DNA from: a virus
Taxonomy: Duplodnaviria > Caudoviricetes
Direction: 5' to 3' (one strand)
DNA length: 64,000 nt
IMG/VR virus record: IMGVR_UViG_3300028591_000103
Span: 1 to 64,000 of that record
Position numbers and translations under genes: made by a program. Numbering within the stretch: the stretch's first letter is position 1; each line of letters starts with the position of its first letter. Below the pieces are notes generated by a model. The model had not been told where the DNA came from. It was given only the letters and a program-made list of their open reading frames with translations, and made no database searches. This document shows, one piece after another, positions 2,909 through 20,858 of this stretch.

Positions 2909-2940
2909 ATGCTATTCACCTTCTTTCATATAGCAAATGT

Positions 2941-2952
2941 TACTCATCCGTT
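2941..2952 (-). promoter_or_regulatory. Candidate late promoter AACG-N6-TA
   Basis: AACG GATGAG TA upstream of the gene starting at 2908; resembles the AR9 late consensus AACA-N6-TA. Confidence 0.45.
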
Positions 2953-2975
2953 TTCTTTTTCATAAAAATGGTATA

Positions 2976-2990
2976 TATATAATTAATATG
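2976..2990 (+). promoter_or_regulatory. Candidate phage promoter TATATA-N-TT-N3-ATG
   Basis: Same motif at 18254, 19283 and 63244 (-). Confidence 0.55.
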
Positions 2991-3204
2991 ATATCAGATC
3001 AAATGTGCTTTGTGGCAACTCGTTGTCTAATCCGAGTCCACATGTGTCTCCTCACAAATCCCTTGCATTCGGGTATTGTGTAGCACAAGATTGCTGAGAT
3101 CTGGTATCATATTCACGCAGGATGAGGTCATCAATCACGACAGAATGAAATTATCGAACGGATAATGGAATGATGTTATGGTTGTGACCTTCATCCTTTT
3201 TTTT
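2988..3204 (+). ncRNA. Candidate structured ncRNA (~217 nt), family unknown
   Basis: 13-bp closing stem 2988-3000/3098-3110 with internal helices, then a long hairpin 3119-3197 and a T8 tract; promoter motif directly upstream. Confidence 0.6.
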
Positions 3205-3216
3205 GATTAAAATGAG

Positions 3217-3241
3217 AATGGGGCGCAATGCGCCCCATTCC
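3217..3241 (-). terminator. Intrinsic terminator
   Basis: gaatggggcgc aat gcgccccattc, immediately after the baseplate gene stop. Confidence 0.8.
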
Positions 3242-3243
3242 AC

Positions 3244-15390: not shown

Positions 15391-17061
15391 ATGCCTGATA
15401 AAAATCAGACAAAAACGACTGAGGAAAAAGAATCCGGTGGATTCTCGAAAAGCCTTAATGAACTGAATAAATCTGGAGAAGATTTCGGCAAAGCTTTTGG
15501 TGATCTCAGAAAAAATACCGGAGAGCTGGGTGGTAATGCCGGTGCTCTCGGTGGAACTGTTGGTGCTATTGCATCAGGAGCACTTCGCAAGACTTCCGCA
15601 AATGCTGGTGGCTATGATTATGCCAAAACAGTTATCGGACGTGCTTCAAAGAATACGTTCGAGTTCCCGGTATTCATGTCCTCATCCGTTCCGATGGATT
15701 ATGCGACTGCTGTTAATTCATTGCTCGAACAGATTTATGCTTCTTATCTGCAAATGGCGATTTCCATGCAGCCTGTCATCAGTTACAGAGAAGCGGAAAA
15801 TGGTCCGTTTGATGCAATGAAGACAAACGTAACAAAGTATCTGGAGTACACAACTTCTGAATGGGCTCATGATGCTTGTGAGAATCATATTGTTACAGAA
15901 GCTTCTGAAGCAGAGTTCCATATGATCAATATCACTGAAAAAGATGCAGCCATCATTCAGGAAGCTCTGGATTATGTGCCGTTGTCTGAATTCGATCATT
16001 TCTTCCAGGAAGCTGGTAATTATCGTAGACTTCGTGAACAGCAGATGCGCGATGAACATGACAAAGCGGAACGCGAAAAGCAAAAGGACCTTCGTCAGAA
16101 GTTGAAAGACAAGAAGGATGAAGAAGATCGCGACGCAAAAAGAACACGTGATGAAGCTGAAGAATCCCGCAAGGAAGCAAAAGAAAAACGTGAAGTCGAG
16201 AAAGCCACACGTGAAAAAGCGGAAGAATCTCGTAAGGCAGCAAAAGAAAAACGCGATATCGATCAATACGAACGTGATAAAAATTCTCAAGCGATTCTTG
16301 ATAAACAGCGTGTCGGACAATCCAATCGCGATTTCGAGAAGCATGCAATGGATATGAAGGTCAAAGCACCTCAGTTGATGGATGAAACCAAGATTCAGAA
16401 ACTGAATACCATGAAACCTTTGATGATGACAGCAAGTCTCAAAATCAAGGATAAGAATGGCGCAATATCCAATGCTGTTGATTACGTCGTTGGTGTTAAG
16501 ACACACTGTCGTGTTGTTCCTGCCGATATTCTTCCGGATGTTGTAAAGTATCCTCAAAAGGAAATGAATCGCCTTACACACAAAGCAAAATGGCGCGCAG
16601 GCGAAATCAAGTTCCTTGATTACTTCTTCAACCGCAATGCAAAGAAGCAGGCGGCATATGATTCCAAAGATCCAAACAGACGTTGGTATCATCGTCTCTA
16701 TACCCTTGCACATTCCAAGGGTTCTTCTGCTCTTGCAAGAAAAATCAGTGGTTCTAAATCACCTGATGGATTAATTCCGAATGTCACAATGGTTATGACA
16801 AAAGCCGATGTGGATATGATCGAATCCGAAACCAGTATTGATTTGCTCAAGGGCTCTGCAGCAAGAAGTTTCTGTAAAGAACTTTTCTTGATCTGTCTGA
16901 TCGTTCTGGATACTGATGCACAGTCTATCAAGATCCTTCTTCCGGATATCAATAACGATTATGAAGTACACTCGTTTGCTTCTGTCAATAAACAGCTTGC
17001 CACATTGGATACTGCCGGAGATGTATCTCGTGAAGTCAGTAAACTGATGCGTGGAAGATAA
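15391..17061 (+). CDS. Virion (probable internal head) protein
   Basis: 556 aa; FFQEA maturation-like motif followed by a charged coiled-coil insert. Confidence 0.7.
   Translation: MPDKNQTKTTEEKESGGFSKSLNELNKSGEDFGKAFGDLRKNTGELGGNAGALGGTVGAIASGALRKTSANAGGYDYAKTVIGRASKNTFEFPVFMSSSVPMDYATAVNSLLEQIYASYLQMAISMQPVISYREAENGPFDAMKTNVTKYLEYTTSEWAHDACENHIVTEASEAEFHMINITEKDAAIIQEALDYVPLSEFDHFFQEAGNYRRLREQQMRDEHDKAEREKQKDLRQKLKDKKDEEDRDAKRTRDEAEESRKEAKEKREVEKATREKAEESRKAAKEKRDIDQYERDKNSQAILDKQRVGQSNRDFEKHAMDMKVKAPQLMDETKIQKLNTMKPLMMTASLKIKDKNGAISNAVDYVVGVKTHCRVVPADILPDVVKYPQKEMNRLTHKAKWRAGEIKFLDYFFNRNAKKQAAYDSKDPNRRWYHRLYTLAHSKGSSALARKISGSKSPDGLIPNVTMVMTKADVDMIESETSIDLLKGSAARSFCKELFLICLIVLDTDAQSIKILLPDINNDYEVHSFASVNKQLATLDTAGDVSREVSKLMRGR
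16144..16269 (+). repeat. 63-nt (21-aa) tandem duplication
   Basis: TRDEAEESRKEAKEKREVEKA / TREKAEESRKAAKEKRDIDQY. Confidence 0.7.
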
Positions 17062-17079: not shown

Positions 17080-18195
17080 ATGTTGAAATCAAAGAAGCAA
17101 ACTCAAAAAGAATTGGATGCTGCGATGCTTTCGCTGAACACAGTTCTTCGTGAGTTGTATACCAATAAGAGCAGTGATGAATTCAAGATGAAAGGTGATA
17201 TCACGAAGTCATCATCTTATCATTCGATTGAAACAATGATTGCCGATCTTTCATCGTTAAAGGGTTACAATCAGAATGACGCTGCTGATCTCAAGCAGTT
17301 GTTCACGACACTTCATCGTCCGATCTTCAAGACCATGGTGAAGGAATACATCATGGAACCGAATGATCGAAACACTGTGTTCACTGCGACATTCACCATG
17401 GGTTATCGTCTTTTAACCGGTGAACTGGCAAGAATCTTCTCTTCTACGGAGTCTACTCCGAAGGGTATTGTTTACAAGCCCGATAAGAATTCTCGTAAGA
17501 AAGATGCTTCCAAGATGATCAAAATGTTCAATGCTGATCTGGAGAGGAAGCTTGACAGCTATGTCAAGAGTCAGTCGATCGGTAATGATGATAAGCCTGT
17601 GAATGAATCATACCTGACAGAAATCCTGAAAGGTCGTCCAGAAGAACCGTCTGATGAAACTGTTCAGGAGGGCGTTGGTGCAATCGTGGCAAAAGGAGCT
17701 TCAGGTATTGCTGGAGCACTCGCAAAAGGTGCAGCTGCAATTGCTCCGACTGCAACAAATATTGGCATCATCTCTGCATCTGTCGGAATGTTGGCCGGTT
17801 TGTTTGCAGGTATTCACAGTATCTTCAGAGGTTTGAACCCGGTTGCTGATGTCAACTATCTTTTCATGAATTCTTATGAAAAGAAAATCAGTAAACTGAG
17901 TGCTGTCGCAGCAATGTATGAAGAAACCAAGAAAGCTTATGAGGAATACATGAAGATTCCGGAAGCAAAACGTCAGAAGAAGGTTGAAAGCAAGTATATC
18001 CAGAATATGGAGAAATATAATATTACGATGCAAAACCTTGCTGCTGAAATCGAGCATTTCAATCAACGTGCGGAAAAAGAATCCCAGGAACATGCAAAAG
18101 ATGTTAAAGACAAGCTCCCTGACGATTCTTCAAATCCGCAGGGAGGTGATTCTGGAAACGGCTCCGATAATCCGGATGACGATTTCCAGTTCTAA
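17080..18195 (+). CDS. Virion protein with Gly/Ala-rich hydrophobic segment
   Basis: 371 aa; TVQE|GVGAIVAKGASGIAGAL... segment; GAGGTGA RBS. Confidence 0.7.
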   Translation: MLKSKKQTQKELDAAMLSLNTVLRELYTNKSSDEFKMKGDITKSSSYHSIETMIADLSSLKGYNQNDAADLKQLFTTLHRPIFKTMVKEYIMEPNDRNTVFTATFTMGYRLLTGELARIFSSTESTPKGIVYKPDKNSRKKDASKMIKMFNADLERKLDSYVKSQSIGNDDKPVNESYLTEILKGRPEEPSDETVQEGVGAIVAKGASGIAGALAKGAAAIAPTATNIGIISASVGMLAGLFAGIHSIFRGLNPVADVNYLFMNSYEKKISKLSAVAAMYEETKKAYEEYMKIPEAKRQKKVESKYIQNMEKYNITMQNLAAEIEHFNQRAEKESQEHAKDVKDKLPDDSSNPQGGDSGNGSDNPDDDFQF

Positions 18196-18207
18196 TGTGT
18201 AATATAG

Positions 18208-18232
18208 ATGGAGGGGCGAAAGCCCCTCCATC
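18208..18232 (+). terminator. Intrinsic terminator
   Basis: gatggaggggc gaaa gcccctccatc followed by atttt. Confidence 0.85.
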
Positions 18233-18253
18233 ATTTTATTACTTTTATACACA

Positions 18254-18268
18254 TATATATTTTATATG
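18254..18268 (+). promoter_or_regulatory. Candidate phage promoter TATATA-N-TT-N3-ATG
   Basis: TATATA T TT TAT ATG just after the terminator. Confidence 0.55.
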
Positions 18269-18573
18269 TAGAAAGGAGTTCGATATCGTTCAGAAATGAA
18301 GTGAATCACTTATGACGAATCAAACACAAATATTGGCCGCGTCGGATTACAGCGACGCGACCAACAATGTGTCGGTCATTATGACCGATCCGTATGAGAT
18401 GTTGCATTCGTACTTCGAGAGAGTATTGAATCCATCCATACATTCACAAAAGATCTTATGCGTGCCGATGATTCTGAACAGATGAGTCGGTTCGTACGAT
18501 AAGATCCACCTATGTATGTATCATTGATGATGGGCCCGAACCATCAATGGGTATCAATGATACATACATTTTT
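18266..18573 (+). ncRNA. Candidate structured ncRNA (~310 nt), family unknown
   Basis: Five consecutive hairpins, long-range pairings, and a terminal 17-bp stem followed by a T tract. Confidence 0.6.
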
Positions 18574-18619
18574 GTATTGGTTACACTACCAATTATATTA
18601 TGGAAAGGAGGTTACTTGT

Positions 18620-19048
18620 TTGAAAATACAATATATTGTAGATGATCTCGCAAATGTATTAACGGAATATTATATGAAACTCCGTAATATAAATGTGAAC
18701 GACACGAAACGTACGATTATGAAGCTTCATATGAAACAAGCAATCTCCGATACATACAAATACCTGTATGAACCTGTGGAAGAGGTATGGATGATCGACG
18801 TATTATACCATATGAATTTACACACATATGAACTAAATCATGATGTGGATTATGATCGTATTGAAATAGATACTATTATACAAGACATTCGTGAAAAGCT
18901 TGATATCATTCTAAATGAATTGGGCGATACTATAAATAATAGCGATGACATCATAATCATCCGTTGTGTACCATTTGATGGTTTCTCAATATCCACGCGA
19001 GACATTACACAATTATTGGATTTAGATTGTGATGTTATCAGAAAATGA
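18620..19048 (+). CDS. Hypothetical protein
   Basis: AAGGAGG RBS before TTG 18620; 142 aa. Confidence 0.65.
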   Translation: MKIQYIVDDLANVLTEYYMKLRNINVNDTKRTIMKLHMKQAISDTYKYLYEPVEEVWMIDVLYHMNLHTYELNHDVDYDRIEIDTIIQDIREKLDIILNELGDTINNSDDIIIIRCVPFDGFSISTRDITQLLDLDCDVIRK

Positions 19049-19063
19049 AAAGAGGTGAATCAT

Positions 19064-19261
19064 ATGTCACGTTCCATTCGAATCATGGATGACAATCAGC
19101 AACTGATTGGTGAGCTGATGACTGCGTCAAACACTGATATTCTTGCATACATTGCAAAGGGTTTAAAAGTGTATGATAAGAAAACTGGTGAGATGATCAC
19201 AGAATCGGCAATGACAGAAGAGCTCGGTGTTTCTGATGGTGGAATCATCATGGAAGCGTAA
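19064..19261 (+). CDS. Hypothetical protein
   Basis: GAGGTGA RBS; 65 aa. Confidence 0.7.
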   Translation: MSRSIRIMDDNQQLIGELMTASNTDILAYIAKGLKVYDKKTGEMITESAMTEELGVSDGGIIMEA

Positions 19262-19282
19262 TTTTTTTTTGTCATTCACACA

Positions 19283-19297
19283 TATATACTTACGATG
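19283..19297 (+). promoter_or_regulatory. Candidate phage promoter TATATA-N-TT-N3-ATG
   Basis: TATATA C TT ACG ATG upstream of the gene at 19358. Confidence 0.55.
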
Positions 19298-19357
19298 TAT
19301 AATCGGGAAAGACTCGGTTGTATATAAAATCTATTCTTTCATAAGGAGGAAAAAACT

Positions 19358-19774
19358 ATGGCAACCAACAAACCTAGTTCACTGTCTGCATTCCATGCAT
19401 ACTGCAAAGAAAAGGAGAACACTCTCTTTCAGAATGCTCTTCGTGAATCTTACAAAGTGAACGCCAAGAAGCTTGGTTATCCGAGCAAGGATGAAATCGG
19501 CATCGTCGATAATGCTGTCATGGATGGTTCTCACATCGCTGAGGTGATTCCGACGCTGATTTCGAACTACATGCATGATGAAAAGCGTGCATTCGATCTT
19601 CCGGCTCCGGATAAGAAGACTGCTCCGGCAACCATCAAAGTTGTTGCAGTTCCGGAAAAGACCAAGACAGGTACTGTCATGCTTGGTGACAAGAAGGGTC
19701 AGACCTATACCTCTACTGTCAAAGCGCATGAAGAGTACAAGGTCAAGTCTCGTACCAAGGATTTCAAGAAGTGA
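19358..19774 (+). CDS. Basic, probably highly expressed protein (possible DNA-binding, HU-arm-like)
   Basis: 138 aa; AAGGAGG RBS; biased codon usage; Lys-rich beta-arm-like C-terminus; own promoter and terminator. Confidence 0.6.
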   Translation: MATNKPSSLSAFHAYCKEKENTLFQNALRESYKVNAKKLGYPSKDEIGIVDNAVMDGSHIAEVIPTLISNYMHDEKRAFDLPAPDKKTAPATIKVVAVPEKTKTGTVMLGDKKGQTYTSTVKAHEEYKVKSRTKDFKK

Positions 19775-19816
19775 GTTAAGGGTTCCTCGCTTTTTGGATA
19801 AAGATCTGACATGTTG

Positions 19817-19870: not shown

Positions 19871-20428
19871 ATGGAAGAAACCAAAATCGTTTTCAAATCC
19901 CCATGTACAAATTGTTTATGCAAAAGATGTGTAGATTGTACACAAGAACATTGTGATGATTGTGAAGCATTGAGTCCAATTCATGAATGTGATGGATTCA
20001 AATCACACACGATCAATGATCTTCGTGATGAATTGTGGCAATTCATTCATGCGGTCATGGTTGATGAAGTTGAAGCAAGTAAAGAAAAGAGAGAACTGAA
20101 ATATCCGGAATATGCTGGTATGCGATCTATTTCTGTAAAATTCGAGAATTTGACTCAGTACGCGACTTCTATTAAACTTTACAGTGATTCTAGAATCCGA
20201 TTCTCTATTATCATAAATTCAAATGAAGACGGCAGTGAATGGTGGTTCACAAAGCCGAGAACAAACAAACGAAACATCGATGAAATACCAGATCTCGAAA
20301 CTCCACAGAAGCAACATTTTATGAATAAAATCATTGGCATCATCGAAAAGTATATTGGTTGCTCATATGATGAACGTATCAAACGTACAGAACTACAGAC
20401 GACATTCAAACAAACGAAGGGGAATTGA
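19871..20428 (+). CDS. Hypothetical protein with Cys-rich N-terminus
   Basis: GGAGG RBS; CTNCLCKRCVDCTQEHCDDC...C metal-binding-like segment. Confidence 0.65.
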   Translation: MEETKIVFKSPCTNCLCKRCVDCTQEHCDDCEALSPIHECDGFKSHTINDLRDELWQFIHAVMVDEVEASKEKRELKYPEYAGMRSISVKFENLTQYATSIKLYSDSRIRFSIIINSNEDGSEWWFTKPRTNKRNIDEIPDLETPQKQHFMNKIIGIIEKYIGCSYDERIKRTELQTTFKQTKGN

Positions 20429-20429
20429 T

Positions 20430-20858
20430 ATGATCTTCAATTTTCAAAATAAAGAATGTCTCACCGAGTTATTATATTACTCGATTATCAATAGAATCAT
20501 TGTTAAAATGATTCCGCCGAAAACATCAAACAATTTCAGATTAGCATCCATTAATGACATATATAATCATGACGACACATATGTCAAAAAAGGAATGCTT
20601 CTGTATAAGAATGAAACAAAAGATCCCAAAAATCTGCAACCAATTTTATCCATATGCATGGATGAAGAACGTGTTTGTGTTTCCATGACTGGTATCGCGG
20701 AAAATCTCGGAATTGTCATCGAGACTGTCGATGACGGAATTGGTGTTGACTTTAAGGGTATAGAAGATCCGGAGCTAAAAAGTGATGAAAGAAATGCTGC
20801 CGAATTCATATATGATATCGTCAAAGCCGCGTTGACAGAGCTTGCGGAACATTTCTAA
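20430..20858 (+). CDS. Hypothetical protein
   Basis: AAGGGGA RBS; 142 aa. Confidence 0.65.
   Translation: MIFNFQNKECLTELLYYSIINRIIVKMIPPKTSNNFRLASINDIYNHDDTYVKKGMLLYKNETKDPKNLQPILSICMDEERVCVSMTGIAENLGIVIETVDDGIGVDFKGIEDPELKSDERNAAEFIYDIVKAALTELAEHF

What the first reader, a model, noticed from the sequence alone, without database searches (positions are those of the whole stretch)
18266..18573. Unannotated ~310-nt highly structured RNA with possible pseudoknot
Seen between a terminator plus promoter motif and a T tract: hairpins ttggccgcgtcg/cgacgcgaccaa (18333-18364), tcggtca/tgaccga (18372-18388), gtatg-agatg...catc-catac (18392-18441), gatcttat...ataagatc (18452-18506) and a 17-bp stem atgtatgtatcattgat/atcaatgatacatacat (18512-18569). 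gtgaat (18301) can pair with attcac (18442). gttcagaa (18288-95) is complementary to ttctgaac (18472-79). Only a 56-codon ORF without a well-placed RBS lies inside. I do not recognise a known family. Inference: a phage-encoded ncRNA.
Basis: partly seen in the sequence, partly recalled or inferred. Interest (0 to 1): 0.75.

Follow-up and report, generated by a model that had tools for sequence, protein, structure and literature searches.

The report
Strain-specific small-gene cassette with structured RNA
The flagged stretch is a short self-contained unit (likely promoter, ribosome site, a 63-codon orphan reading frame broken here by a one-base deletion, then a terminator) found only in one narrow lineage of an uncultured giant phage; its RNA folds unusually tightly, but nothing shows it is a non-coding RNA and not an ordinary accessory mini-gene.

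Summary
The region folds far better than shuffles (z -5.2). It lies in the top 0.4-1% of 192-nt coding windows of this genome. The two "pseudoknot" complementarities are no more than chance, and their base-pairing probability is 0.02. Rfam gives nothing.

Six near-identical metagenomic strains carry the same element. Five have an intact 63-codon ORF (P0001). All six have GAGGTGA 7 nt before the ATG. The stop lies 9 nt before the 17-bp terminator stem. This window has a private 1-nt deletion (57 codons) and a G-to-A change in that ribosome site. One other strain has a second frameshift.

Relatives at 40-63% protein identity lack the element. In them the two flanking genes are 85-150 nt apart. 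Three near-complete relative genomes have no copy by DNA, protein or covariance model. The insertion sits between two copies of the ancestral terminator-promoter-SD module.

The ORF has no credible homologue among 1.84 billion proteins. Variation is too shallow for covariation or Ka/Ks.

Best reading: a lineage-specific accessory small-gene cassette with an unusually structured mRNA, decaying in this genome (about 0.45). A true ncRNA remains possible (about 0.3).

The parts
18207..18240 (+). Intrinsic terminator of the upstream 371-aa gene (11-bp GC-rich stem, GAAA loop, T-rich tail)
   Evidence: An equivalent hairpin follows the homologous gene in all relatives.
18246..18268 (+). Promoter-like motif, copy 1 (TACA-N6-TA; CACATATATA at 18250-18259; TATATG at 18263-18268). 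This is the ancestral promoter position of the downstream gene.
   Evidence: CA[CT]ATAT[AG]TA occurs 10 times in the 151.6-kb genome against 1.75 expected, about half of the copies right after a terminator hairpin or T run. It aligns with the promoter-SD module of relatives. Function is inferred; there is no transcript data.
18272..18278 (+). Orphan Shine-Dalgarno AAAGGAG with no start codon at a usable distance; a relic of the ancestral SD of the downstream gene
   Evidence: all three frames downstream hit stops (read).
18298..18304 (+). SD of the small ORF. It reads GAAGTGA here (A at 18300 is private to this window) and GAGGTGA in all six relatives, 7 nt before ATG 18312.
18312..18485 (+). 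57-codon ORF of this window. It is the frameshifted form of the 63-codon ORF P0001. One G is missing after 18441. The ancestral frame runs on to TAA at 18500-18502.
18333..18364 (+). Hairpin 1: 12-bp GC-rich stem with an 8-nt loop. The C.A mismatch at 18337 becomes U-A in strains L011/L012.
   Evidence: pair probability 0.98
18372..18388 (+). Hairpin 2: perfect 7+3+7 palindrome
   Evidence: 0.91-0.93
18392..18441 (+). Hairpin 3: long bulged hairpin. It is stable in relatives (about 1.0) and weakened in this window (0.34).
18452..18506 (+). Hairpin 4: 8-bp outer stem plus an inner stem with G-U pairs on the + strand. It contains the ancestral stop codon.
   Evidence: 0.95
18512..18578 (+). Intrinsic terminator of the cassette: perfect 17-bp stem, an inner 6-bp stem, then TTTTGTATT
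   Evidence: longest complementary stretch in 500 shuffles was 12. There is no T run after it on the minus strand (read).
18583..18622 (+). Promoter-like motif and SD, copy 2 (ACACTACCAATTATATTATGGAAAGGAGG), followed by the TTG start (18620) of the conserved 142-aa gene

Best explanation
The element is a lineage-specific accessory gene cassette. It was inserted by recombination at, or duplication of, the standard terminator-promoter-SD module that separates two conserved genes of this jumbo phage. It is probably transcribed from the promoter-like motif at about 18250-18268 and stopped at the 17-bp hairpin and T run at 18512-18578, giving an RNA of about 300 nt. In most strains this RNA is an mRNA for a 63-residue acidic orphan protein (P0001), predicted to have a disordered N-terminal part and one long helix. 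The mRNA body is wrapped in four stable local hairpins, while the ribosome-binding region stays open. That structure may serve stability or regulation. In this window the gene is damaged: the SD is weakened (G to A at 18300) and one base is deleted after 18441, so the last 20 residues are replaced. The cassette is therefore dispensable and decaying here. Shown: the anatomy, absence from relatives, the intact ORF and SD in sister strains, and the excess structure. Inferred: the promoter, the transcript ends, translation, and the role of the structure.
For: ORF and signals: a 63-codon ORF is intact in 5 of 6 sister strains, all six have GAGGTGA 7 nt before the ATG, and TAA lies 9 nt before the terminator stem. 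The initiation region (-35..+35) has an MFE of -11.4 and an unpaired probability of 0.50, in the middle of 187 SD-led ORFs. The ORF frame is the best of six by codon usage. The language-model recognition score is 2707, above the 2300 mark reached by 91% of real proteins and 9% of shuffled ones. Insertion: in six relatives at 40-63% identity the two flanking genes are 85-150 nt apart, with one terminator-promoter-SD module. There is no copy anywhere in three relatives that are 96-100% complete, by protein, DNA or covariance model. The module is duplicated on both sides of the insert. The promoter-like motif is enriched, 10 copies against 1.75 expected. Both private changes of this window hit coding signals. 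The same genome is reported to hold another micro-gene wrapped in RNA structure (a lead only).
Against: Two independent 1-nt deletions break the frame in 2 of 7 copies. No uncompensated frameshift occurs in about 8.5 kb of flanking coding DNA in the same strains. The codon score of -0.005 is below 90% of the SD-led small ORFs and only above 86% of spurious ORFs. There is no credible homologue among 1.84 billion representatives; the two hits are repeat-rich proteins. The AF2 single-sequence model is one helix with mean pLDDT 70. The structure is in the top 0.4-1% of coding windows, and a 12-bp GC-rich hairpin inside a coding frame is unexpected.
Confidence: 0.45

Rival explanations
1. It is a stand-alone structured non-coding RNA of about 250-300 nt: a chain of four or five hairpins ending in the terminator. 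It would act as RNA (decoy, sponge, scaffold or antisense partner), and the ORF would be fortuitous or vestigial.
For: Structure is far above the coding background: the 0.36-0.95th percentile of 844 windows and z -3.4 to -4.8 against codon-aware shuffles. Both frameshifting deletions fall in an unpaired position or at a helix end, and the 18337 change turns a mismatch into a pair. Indels accumulate at an intergenic-like rate. The ORF has no homologues and a weak codon score. Jumbo phages do make short intergenic and prematurely terminated 5'UTR RNAs (201phi2-1: 11 sRNAs, PMC11512511).
Against: A 63-codon open frame that has a good SD at the right distance and stops just before the terminator is unlikely by chance; my rough estimate is about 1%. 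The initiation region is left open while the rest is folded. There is no Rfam match even at E of 10, no covariation, no paralogue or distant copy, and no stable long-range fold. In this window the private changes also weaken hairpin 3.
Confidence: 0.3
2. It is a non-functional remnant: DNA captured during recombination between promoter-terminator modules and carried neutrally. The hairpins would be inherited from its source (old terminators or protein-binding palindromes).
For: The element is confined to one near-clonal lineage. It shows frameshifts and an SD mutation. It has no homologues. Hairpin 1 looks like a minus-strand terminator, with a G-U pair and a T-rich tail on that strand.
Against: The ORF, SD and terminator are intact in 5 of 7 copies. 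All four hairpins are retained in every strain.
Confidence: 0.15
3. It is a translation-coupled leader (attenuator) for the downstream 142-aa gene. A ribosome finishing the leader ORF 9 nt before the terminator stem would hinder hairpin formation and allow read-through.
For: The ancestral promoter now lies upstream of the cassette, and the stop codon is 9 nt from the terminator stem. The CATTGAT segment in the 5' arm of the terminator can pair with either of two ATCAATG copies in the 3' half, which offers alternative folds (read).
Against: A second promoter-like module lies between the terminator and the downstream SD. Relatives express the same gene without any leader. The stop-codon position differs in three variants. 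Rfam finds no T-box or riboswitch.
Confidence: 0.1

Closest known systems
PeSL cassettes (promoter-early stem-loop) and their ORFan cargo in T4-type phages (Arbiol et al. 2010, PMC2839356; Comeau et al. 2014, PMC4122927)
   Same: A small orphan gene is bracketed by composite terminator stem-loop plus promoter modules. It is present or absent between related phages at a fixed place between conserved genes. The regulatory module is duplicated on both sides of the insert.
   Different: The promoter here is not sigma-70-like. The two modules are only about 70% alike by eye. The phage is a phiKZ/AR9-like jumbo phage, not a T4-type phage. No mini-circles or recombination events were observed. The cargo mRNA is unusually structured.
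Intergenic and 5'UTR-derived sRNAs of jumbo phages (201phi2-1 and phiKZ, ONT-cappable-seq; PMC11512511)
   Same: A short unit with a start site followed closely by a terminator, upstream of a structural-region gene in a giant phage with its own RNA polymerases.
   Different: Those RNAs were defined from transcript ends, and one is conserved across genera. Here there is no transcript evidence, no conservation beyond one near-clonal lineage, and an SD-led ORF fills most of the unit.
Phage morons (independently transcribed accessory genes with their own promoter and terminator)
   Same: A self-contained promoter-gene-terminator unit inserted between two conserved genes. It is dispensable and has an atypical codon score.
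   Different: Classical morons are in temperate phages and usually encode recognisable host-interaction proteins. Here the product is an orphan and the gene is broken in some strains.
AR9 late promoters AACA-N6-TA/G and early promoters AAATATATATTAT-N6-G (Lavysh et al. 2017, PMC5312081)
   Same: TACA-N6-TA lies directly after the terminator at 18248-18259. A separate long AT-rich motif elsewhere in the genome resembles the early type.
   Different: [AT]ACA-N6-TA and AACA-N6-T[AG] are not clearly enriched upstream of genes in this genome, so the likeness is a lead only.

Membership tests
Any Rfam 15 family (riboswitches, T-box, ribozymes, tmRNA, known phage RNAs) | Covariance-model score at or above the family's gathering score | tested here: not met
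   There were 0 matches in the whole window. At E up to 10 there were only terminator-hairpin noise hits of 12-24 bits against gathering scores of 40-100. ARAGORN found no tRNA or tmRNA.
Structured ncRNA (generic) | Base pairs kept through compensatory changes in homologues | tested here: inconclusive
   Seven copies are 97-100% identical. Of 104 predicted pairs, 0 show a double change and the covariation term is -0.02 kcal/mol. No more distant copies were found.
Structured ncRNA (generic) | Folding energy beyond that of comparable sequence | tested here: met
   z -5.2; z -3.4 to -4.8 against codon-aware shuffles; 0.36-0.95th percentile of 844 coding windows.
Protein-coding small gene | Start codon with SD at 5-10 nt, an open frame, and a stop before the terminator | tested here: met
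   Met in 5 of 6 sister strains. In this window the SD is weakened and the frame is shifted.
Protein-coding small gene | Protein-level conservation (homologues, excess of synonymous change, no frameshifts) | tested here: not met
   There are no credible homologues. The ORF has only 2 substitutions, 1 synonymous and 1 not. There are two independent frameshifts in 7 copies.
PeSL-type mobile regulatory cassette (T4-type phages) | Terminator stem-loop plus promoter modules flanking variable ORFan cargo, with presence/absence between relatives | tested here: met
PeSL-type mobile regulatory cassette (T4-type phages) | Strong sigma-70-like early promoter in the module; many near-identical modules in hyperplastic regions | tested here: not met
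   The consensus scan finds no sigma-70-type site at 18233-18270. The shared 10-nt motif occurs 10 times, but the modules are not near-identical.
Type I toxin-antitoxin (structured toxin mRNA plus antisense RNA) | Small hydrophobic, membrane-spanning peptide and an antisense RNA gene | tested here: not met
   P0001 is acidic and has no long hydrophobic stretch. AF2 gives one amphipathic-type helix. No convincing minus-strand promoter was found.
CRISPR-repeat mimic (RNA anti-CRISPR type) | The hairpin matches a CRISPR repeat present in arrays of bacterial genomes | tested here: not met
   The 20-mer core of hairpin 1 gives 2 single matches in 596 Gb of genomes, which is the chance level, and none is in an array.
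Jumbo-phage sRNA defined by start site and premature terminator (PMC11512511) | Mapped 5' and 3' transcript ends with an enriched short RNA | not testable with these tools
   The phage is uncultured and no transcript data are on hand.

The most novel reading that the evidence does not exclude
The unit makes a new, lineage-specific structured phage RNA of about 250-300 nt (four hairpins plus a terminator) that acts as RNA, possibly while also encoding a 63-residue peptide. It would have been acquired as a mobile cassette between promoter-terminator modules of an uncultured jumbo phage that carries its own RNA polymerases.
Probability: 0.3. Interest if true: 0.5.

Novelty: new member of a known kind. 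Interest (0 to 1): 0.27.

Why it matters
If the main reading holds, this is one more orphan accessory mini-gene. Its modest value is as a clean example of how giant phages gain and lose small cassettes at duplicated terminator-promoter modules, much as PeSLs do in T4-type phages. If the RNA reading holds, it would add a new structured RNA to the few known in jumbo phages. Its restriction to one near-clonal lineage and the lack of any functional clue limit its reach in either case.

Tried and rejected
- Rfam at gathering score and at E of 10: nothing. tRNA/tmRNA: none.
- Pseudoknot or closing helix: chance-level complementarity and pairing probability 0.02 or less.
- Repeats or paralogues in the 151.6-kb genome: none. 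The covariance model R1 found only itself, its own reverse strand (hairpin self-complementarity), and a 15-bit hit on an unrelated terminator-like hairpin.
- Copies in GenBank phages (DNA and tblastn), IMG/VR, or GTDB genomes: none.
- The HMMER hits P0004 and P0005: rejected as summed matches to repeat-rich proteins.
- Codon usage: falls between true small genes and spurious ORFs, so uninformative.
- Substitution density: the whole neighbourhood 17900-19800 is low in divergence, so 0-2 changes in the ORF mean nothing.
- AR9-type late-promoter motifs: not clearly enriched upstream of genes.
- Minus-strand gene: poor codon scores and no SD.
The one intermediate relative (P0007, 76% identity in the flanking gene, a 6.4-kb Logan contig) could not be fetched, and IMG/VR holds nothing close to it.

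Full report
**Setting.** The window is the first 64 kb of a 151.6-kb IMG/VR virus record that CheckV rates 56% complete. Its relatives are jumbo phages of 258-278 kb. Notes from this scan on the same genome describe split RNA-polymerase genes of the phiKZ/AR9 kind; I did not test that. The finding lies in a + strand gene block, between a 371-aa gene (17080-18195) and a 142-aa gene. The 142-aa gene most likely starts at TTG 18620, behind AAAGGAGG. Neither flanking gene matches Pfam or PHROGs. Nearby genes include RusA, a virion structural protein and a CHAP/PG-binding lysin.

**Observation.**
- The + strand folds to -104.6 kcal/mol, z -5.2. The minus strand gives z -7.2.
- The excess is not just the terminator. 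The 192-nt ORF region alone is more stable than synonymous-codon permutations (z -3.4), resampled synonymous codons (z -4.3) and codon-order shuffles (z -4.8). Twenty-six neighbouring coding chunks average z -1.26 with sd 1.19.
- Among 844 windows of 192 nt inside long ORFs of this genome, the region ranks at the 0.95th percentile, or the 0.36th after GC adjustment.
- The stable elements are local hairpins, with pair probabilities of about 0.8-1.0 in the sister strains. Hairpin 3 drops to 0.34 in this window.
- The long-range pairings proposed as a pseudoknot are not supported. Of the shuffles, 68% contain a complementary 8-mer pair, and about 21 complementary 6-mer pairs are expected. The GTGAAT/ATTCAC helix has a probability of 0.02 or less.
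- Rfam gives nothing at gathering scores and only hairpin noise at E of 10. There is no tRNA or tmRNA.

**Sister strains.** The 57-aa ORF matched a 63-aa protein cluster (P0001-P0003). That cluster led to six metagenomic contigs carrying the same locus at 97-99.5% DNA identity over the aligned 425-nt stretch 18196-18620.
- Five of the six carry an intact 63-codon ORF.
- All six have GAGGTGA 7 nt before the ATG.
- TAA lies 9 nt before the 17-bp terminator stem.
- This window differs from all six at two places: G to A at 18300, inside that SD, and loss of one G after 18441, which shifts the frame and replaces the last 20 residues.
- Strain L010 has a different 1-nt deletion near the end of the ORF, which gives 71 aa.
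- About 8.5 kb of flanking coding DNA in the same contigs shows no uncompensated frameshift. The other indels are intergenic, in-frame within a hypervariable patch, or a compensated pair.

So the last third of the ORF takes indels at an intergenic-like rate. Substitutions say nothing: the ORF has only two (one A-to-V, one synonymous), and the whole neighbourhood is low in divergence.

**Origin.** In six relatives at 40-63% identity in the flanking genes, the two genes are only 85-150 nt apart. The gap there holds one terminator hairpin, a T run, an ACA...TATATG-type motif, an SD and the start codon. Three of those genomes are 96-100% complete. None has a copy of the ORF (protein search), of the DNA, or of the fold (covariance model R1).

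In this window the ancestral module occurs twice:
- Copy 1 (18246-18278) ends in an SD with no usable start codon.
- Copy 2 (18583-18612) sits before the 142-aa gene.

The element is therefore an insertion bracketed by duplicated terminator-promoter-SD modules. The 10-nt core of copy 1, CA[CT]ATAT[AG]TA, occurs 10 times in the genome against 1.75 expected, about half of the copies directly after a terminator hairpin or T run. This supports a promoter role but does not prove it. The AR9-type late-promoter motif (PMC5312081) fits copy 1 (TACA-N6-TA) but is not clearly enriched upstream of genes.

**Coding or not.**

For coding:
- An SD-led 63-codon frame ends just before the terminator. I estimate the chance of this in non-coding DNA of this composition at roughly 1%.
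- The initiation region is as unstructured as in ordinary genes: MFE -11.4 and unpaired probability 0.50, mid-range among 187 SD-led ORFs.
- It is the best of the six frames by codon usage.
- Its language-model recognition score of 2707 lies above the 2300 mark that 91% of real and 9% of shuffled proteins reach.

Against coding:
- Two frameshifts in seven copies.
- A codon score (-0.005) that lies between SD-led small ORFs (0.10 +/- 0.09) and spurious ORFs (-0.13 +/- 0.11).
- No credible homologue in 5.8 billion clustered proteins or 1.84 billion representatives. The two HMMER hits are repeat-rich proteins whose score is summed over repeats. tblastn against GenBank phages and a scan of GTDB genomes also found nothing credible.
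- A single-sequence AlphaFold model with one helix (residues 27-62) and mean pLDDT 70.

For an RNA role:
- The outlying fold energy.
- Both deletions fall in an internal loop or at a helix end.
- The 18337 C-to-T change turns the only mismatch of hairpin 1 into a pair.

These are few events, and no pair shows a double change. In this window the private changes also weaken hairpin 3. This copy therefore looks damaged under either model.

**Other ideas tested.**
- The core of hairpin 1 is not a CRISPR repeat: 2 single matches in 596 Gb, about the chance level.
- The peptide is acidic and not membrane-like, so a type I toxin is unlikely.
- There are no direct repeats of the ToxI kind.
- There are no paralogues in the genome.

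**Conclusion.**
- Most likely (0.45): a lineage-specific accessory small-gene cassette acquired at a duplicated promoter-terminator module. It has an unusually structured mRNA and is decaying in this genome. The closest analogues are PeSL-flanked ORFans of T4-type phages (PMC2839356, PMC4122927) and morons.
- Main rival (0.3): a true structured ncRNA. Known jumbo-phage short RNAs arise from just such start-then-terminator units (PMC11512511).
- Lesser alternatives: a neutral remnant (0.15) and a translation-coupled leader for the downstream gene (0.1).

The decisive data are more distant copies and transcript or peptide evidence, and I could not obtain them.

Noticed in passing
window 16015-16400 (inside the 556-aa virion structural protein gene 15391-17061): Hypervariable patch between near-identical strains. 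There are 58 and 22 mismatches per 192 nt against about 5 on average, plus 18 gap positions against L007 (I did not check whether these keep the frame). Changes fall on all three codon positions (32/30/58). It may be a diversifying surface region.
   Followed up: no
window 2909-3243 (element on the + strand, opposite to both neighbouring genes); genome 103653, 143714, 145295: A strongly conserved 34-nt AT-rich motif (TTTTTCATATATATATAATTAATATGAATAGA[AG]G) resembles AR9-type early promoters. Two copies outside the window are followed by related 18-codon ORFs. The copy in the window heads a ~217-nt structured stretch that ends in T8. Other agents of this scan have already followed up the 18-residue micro-gene.
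   Followed up: partly
window 19055-19270: A 68-codon ORF has a high codon score (0.33), so it is probably a real small gene. The T9 run right after its stop varies in length between strains.
   Followed up: no
window 20334-20858: Against strain L011 this ORF shows paired 1-nt indels at 20653 and 20662 (a compensated frameshift) and up to 26 mismatches per 192 nt. The gene is fast-evolving or mis-called, and gene calls differ between strains (116, 142 and 185 aa).
   Followed up: no
L005:3995-6343 (also L020), genome G003: The homologue of the 371-aa gene is 782 aa there. About 1 kb is inserted between the conserved N- and C-terminal parts.
   Followed up: no
window 18331-18366, minus strand: On the minus strand, hairpin 1 forms a 14-bp stem with a G-U pair and is followed by a T-rich tail (TTTGTGTTTG), so it reads like an intrinsic terminator for antisense transcription. 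No convincing minus-strand promoter was found.
   Followed up: partly
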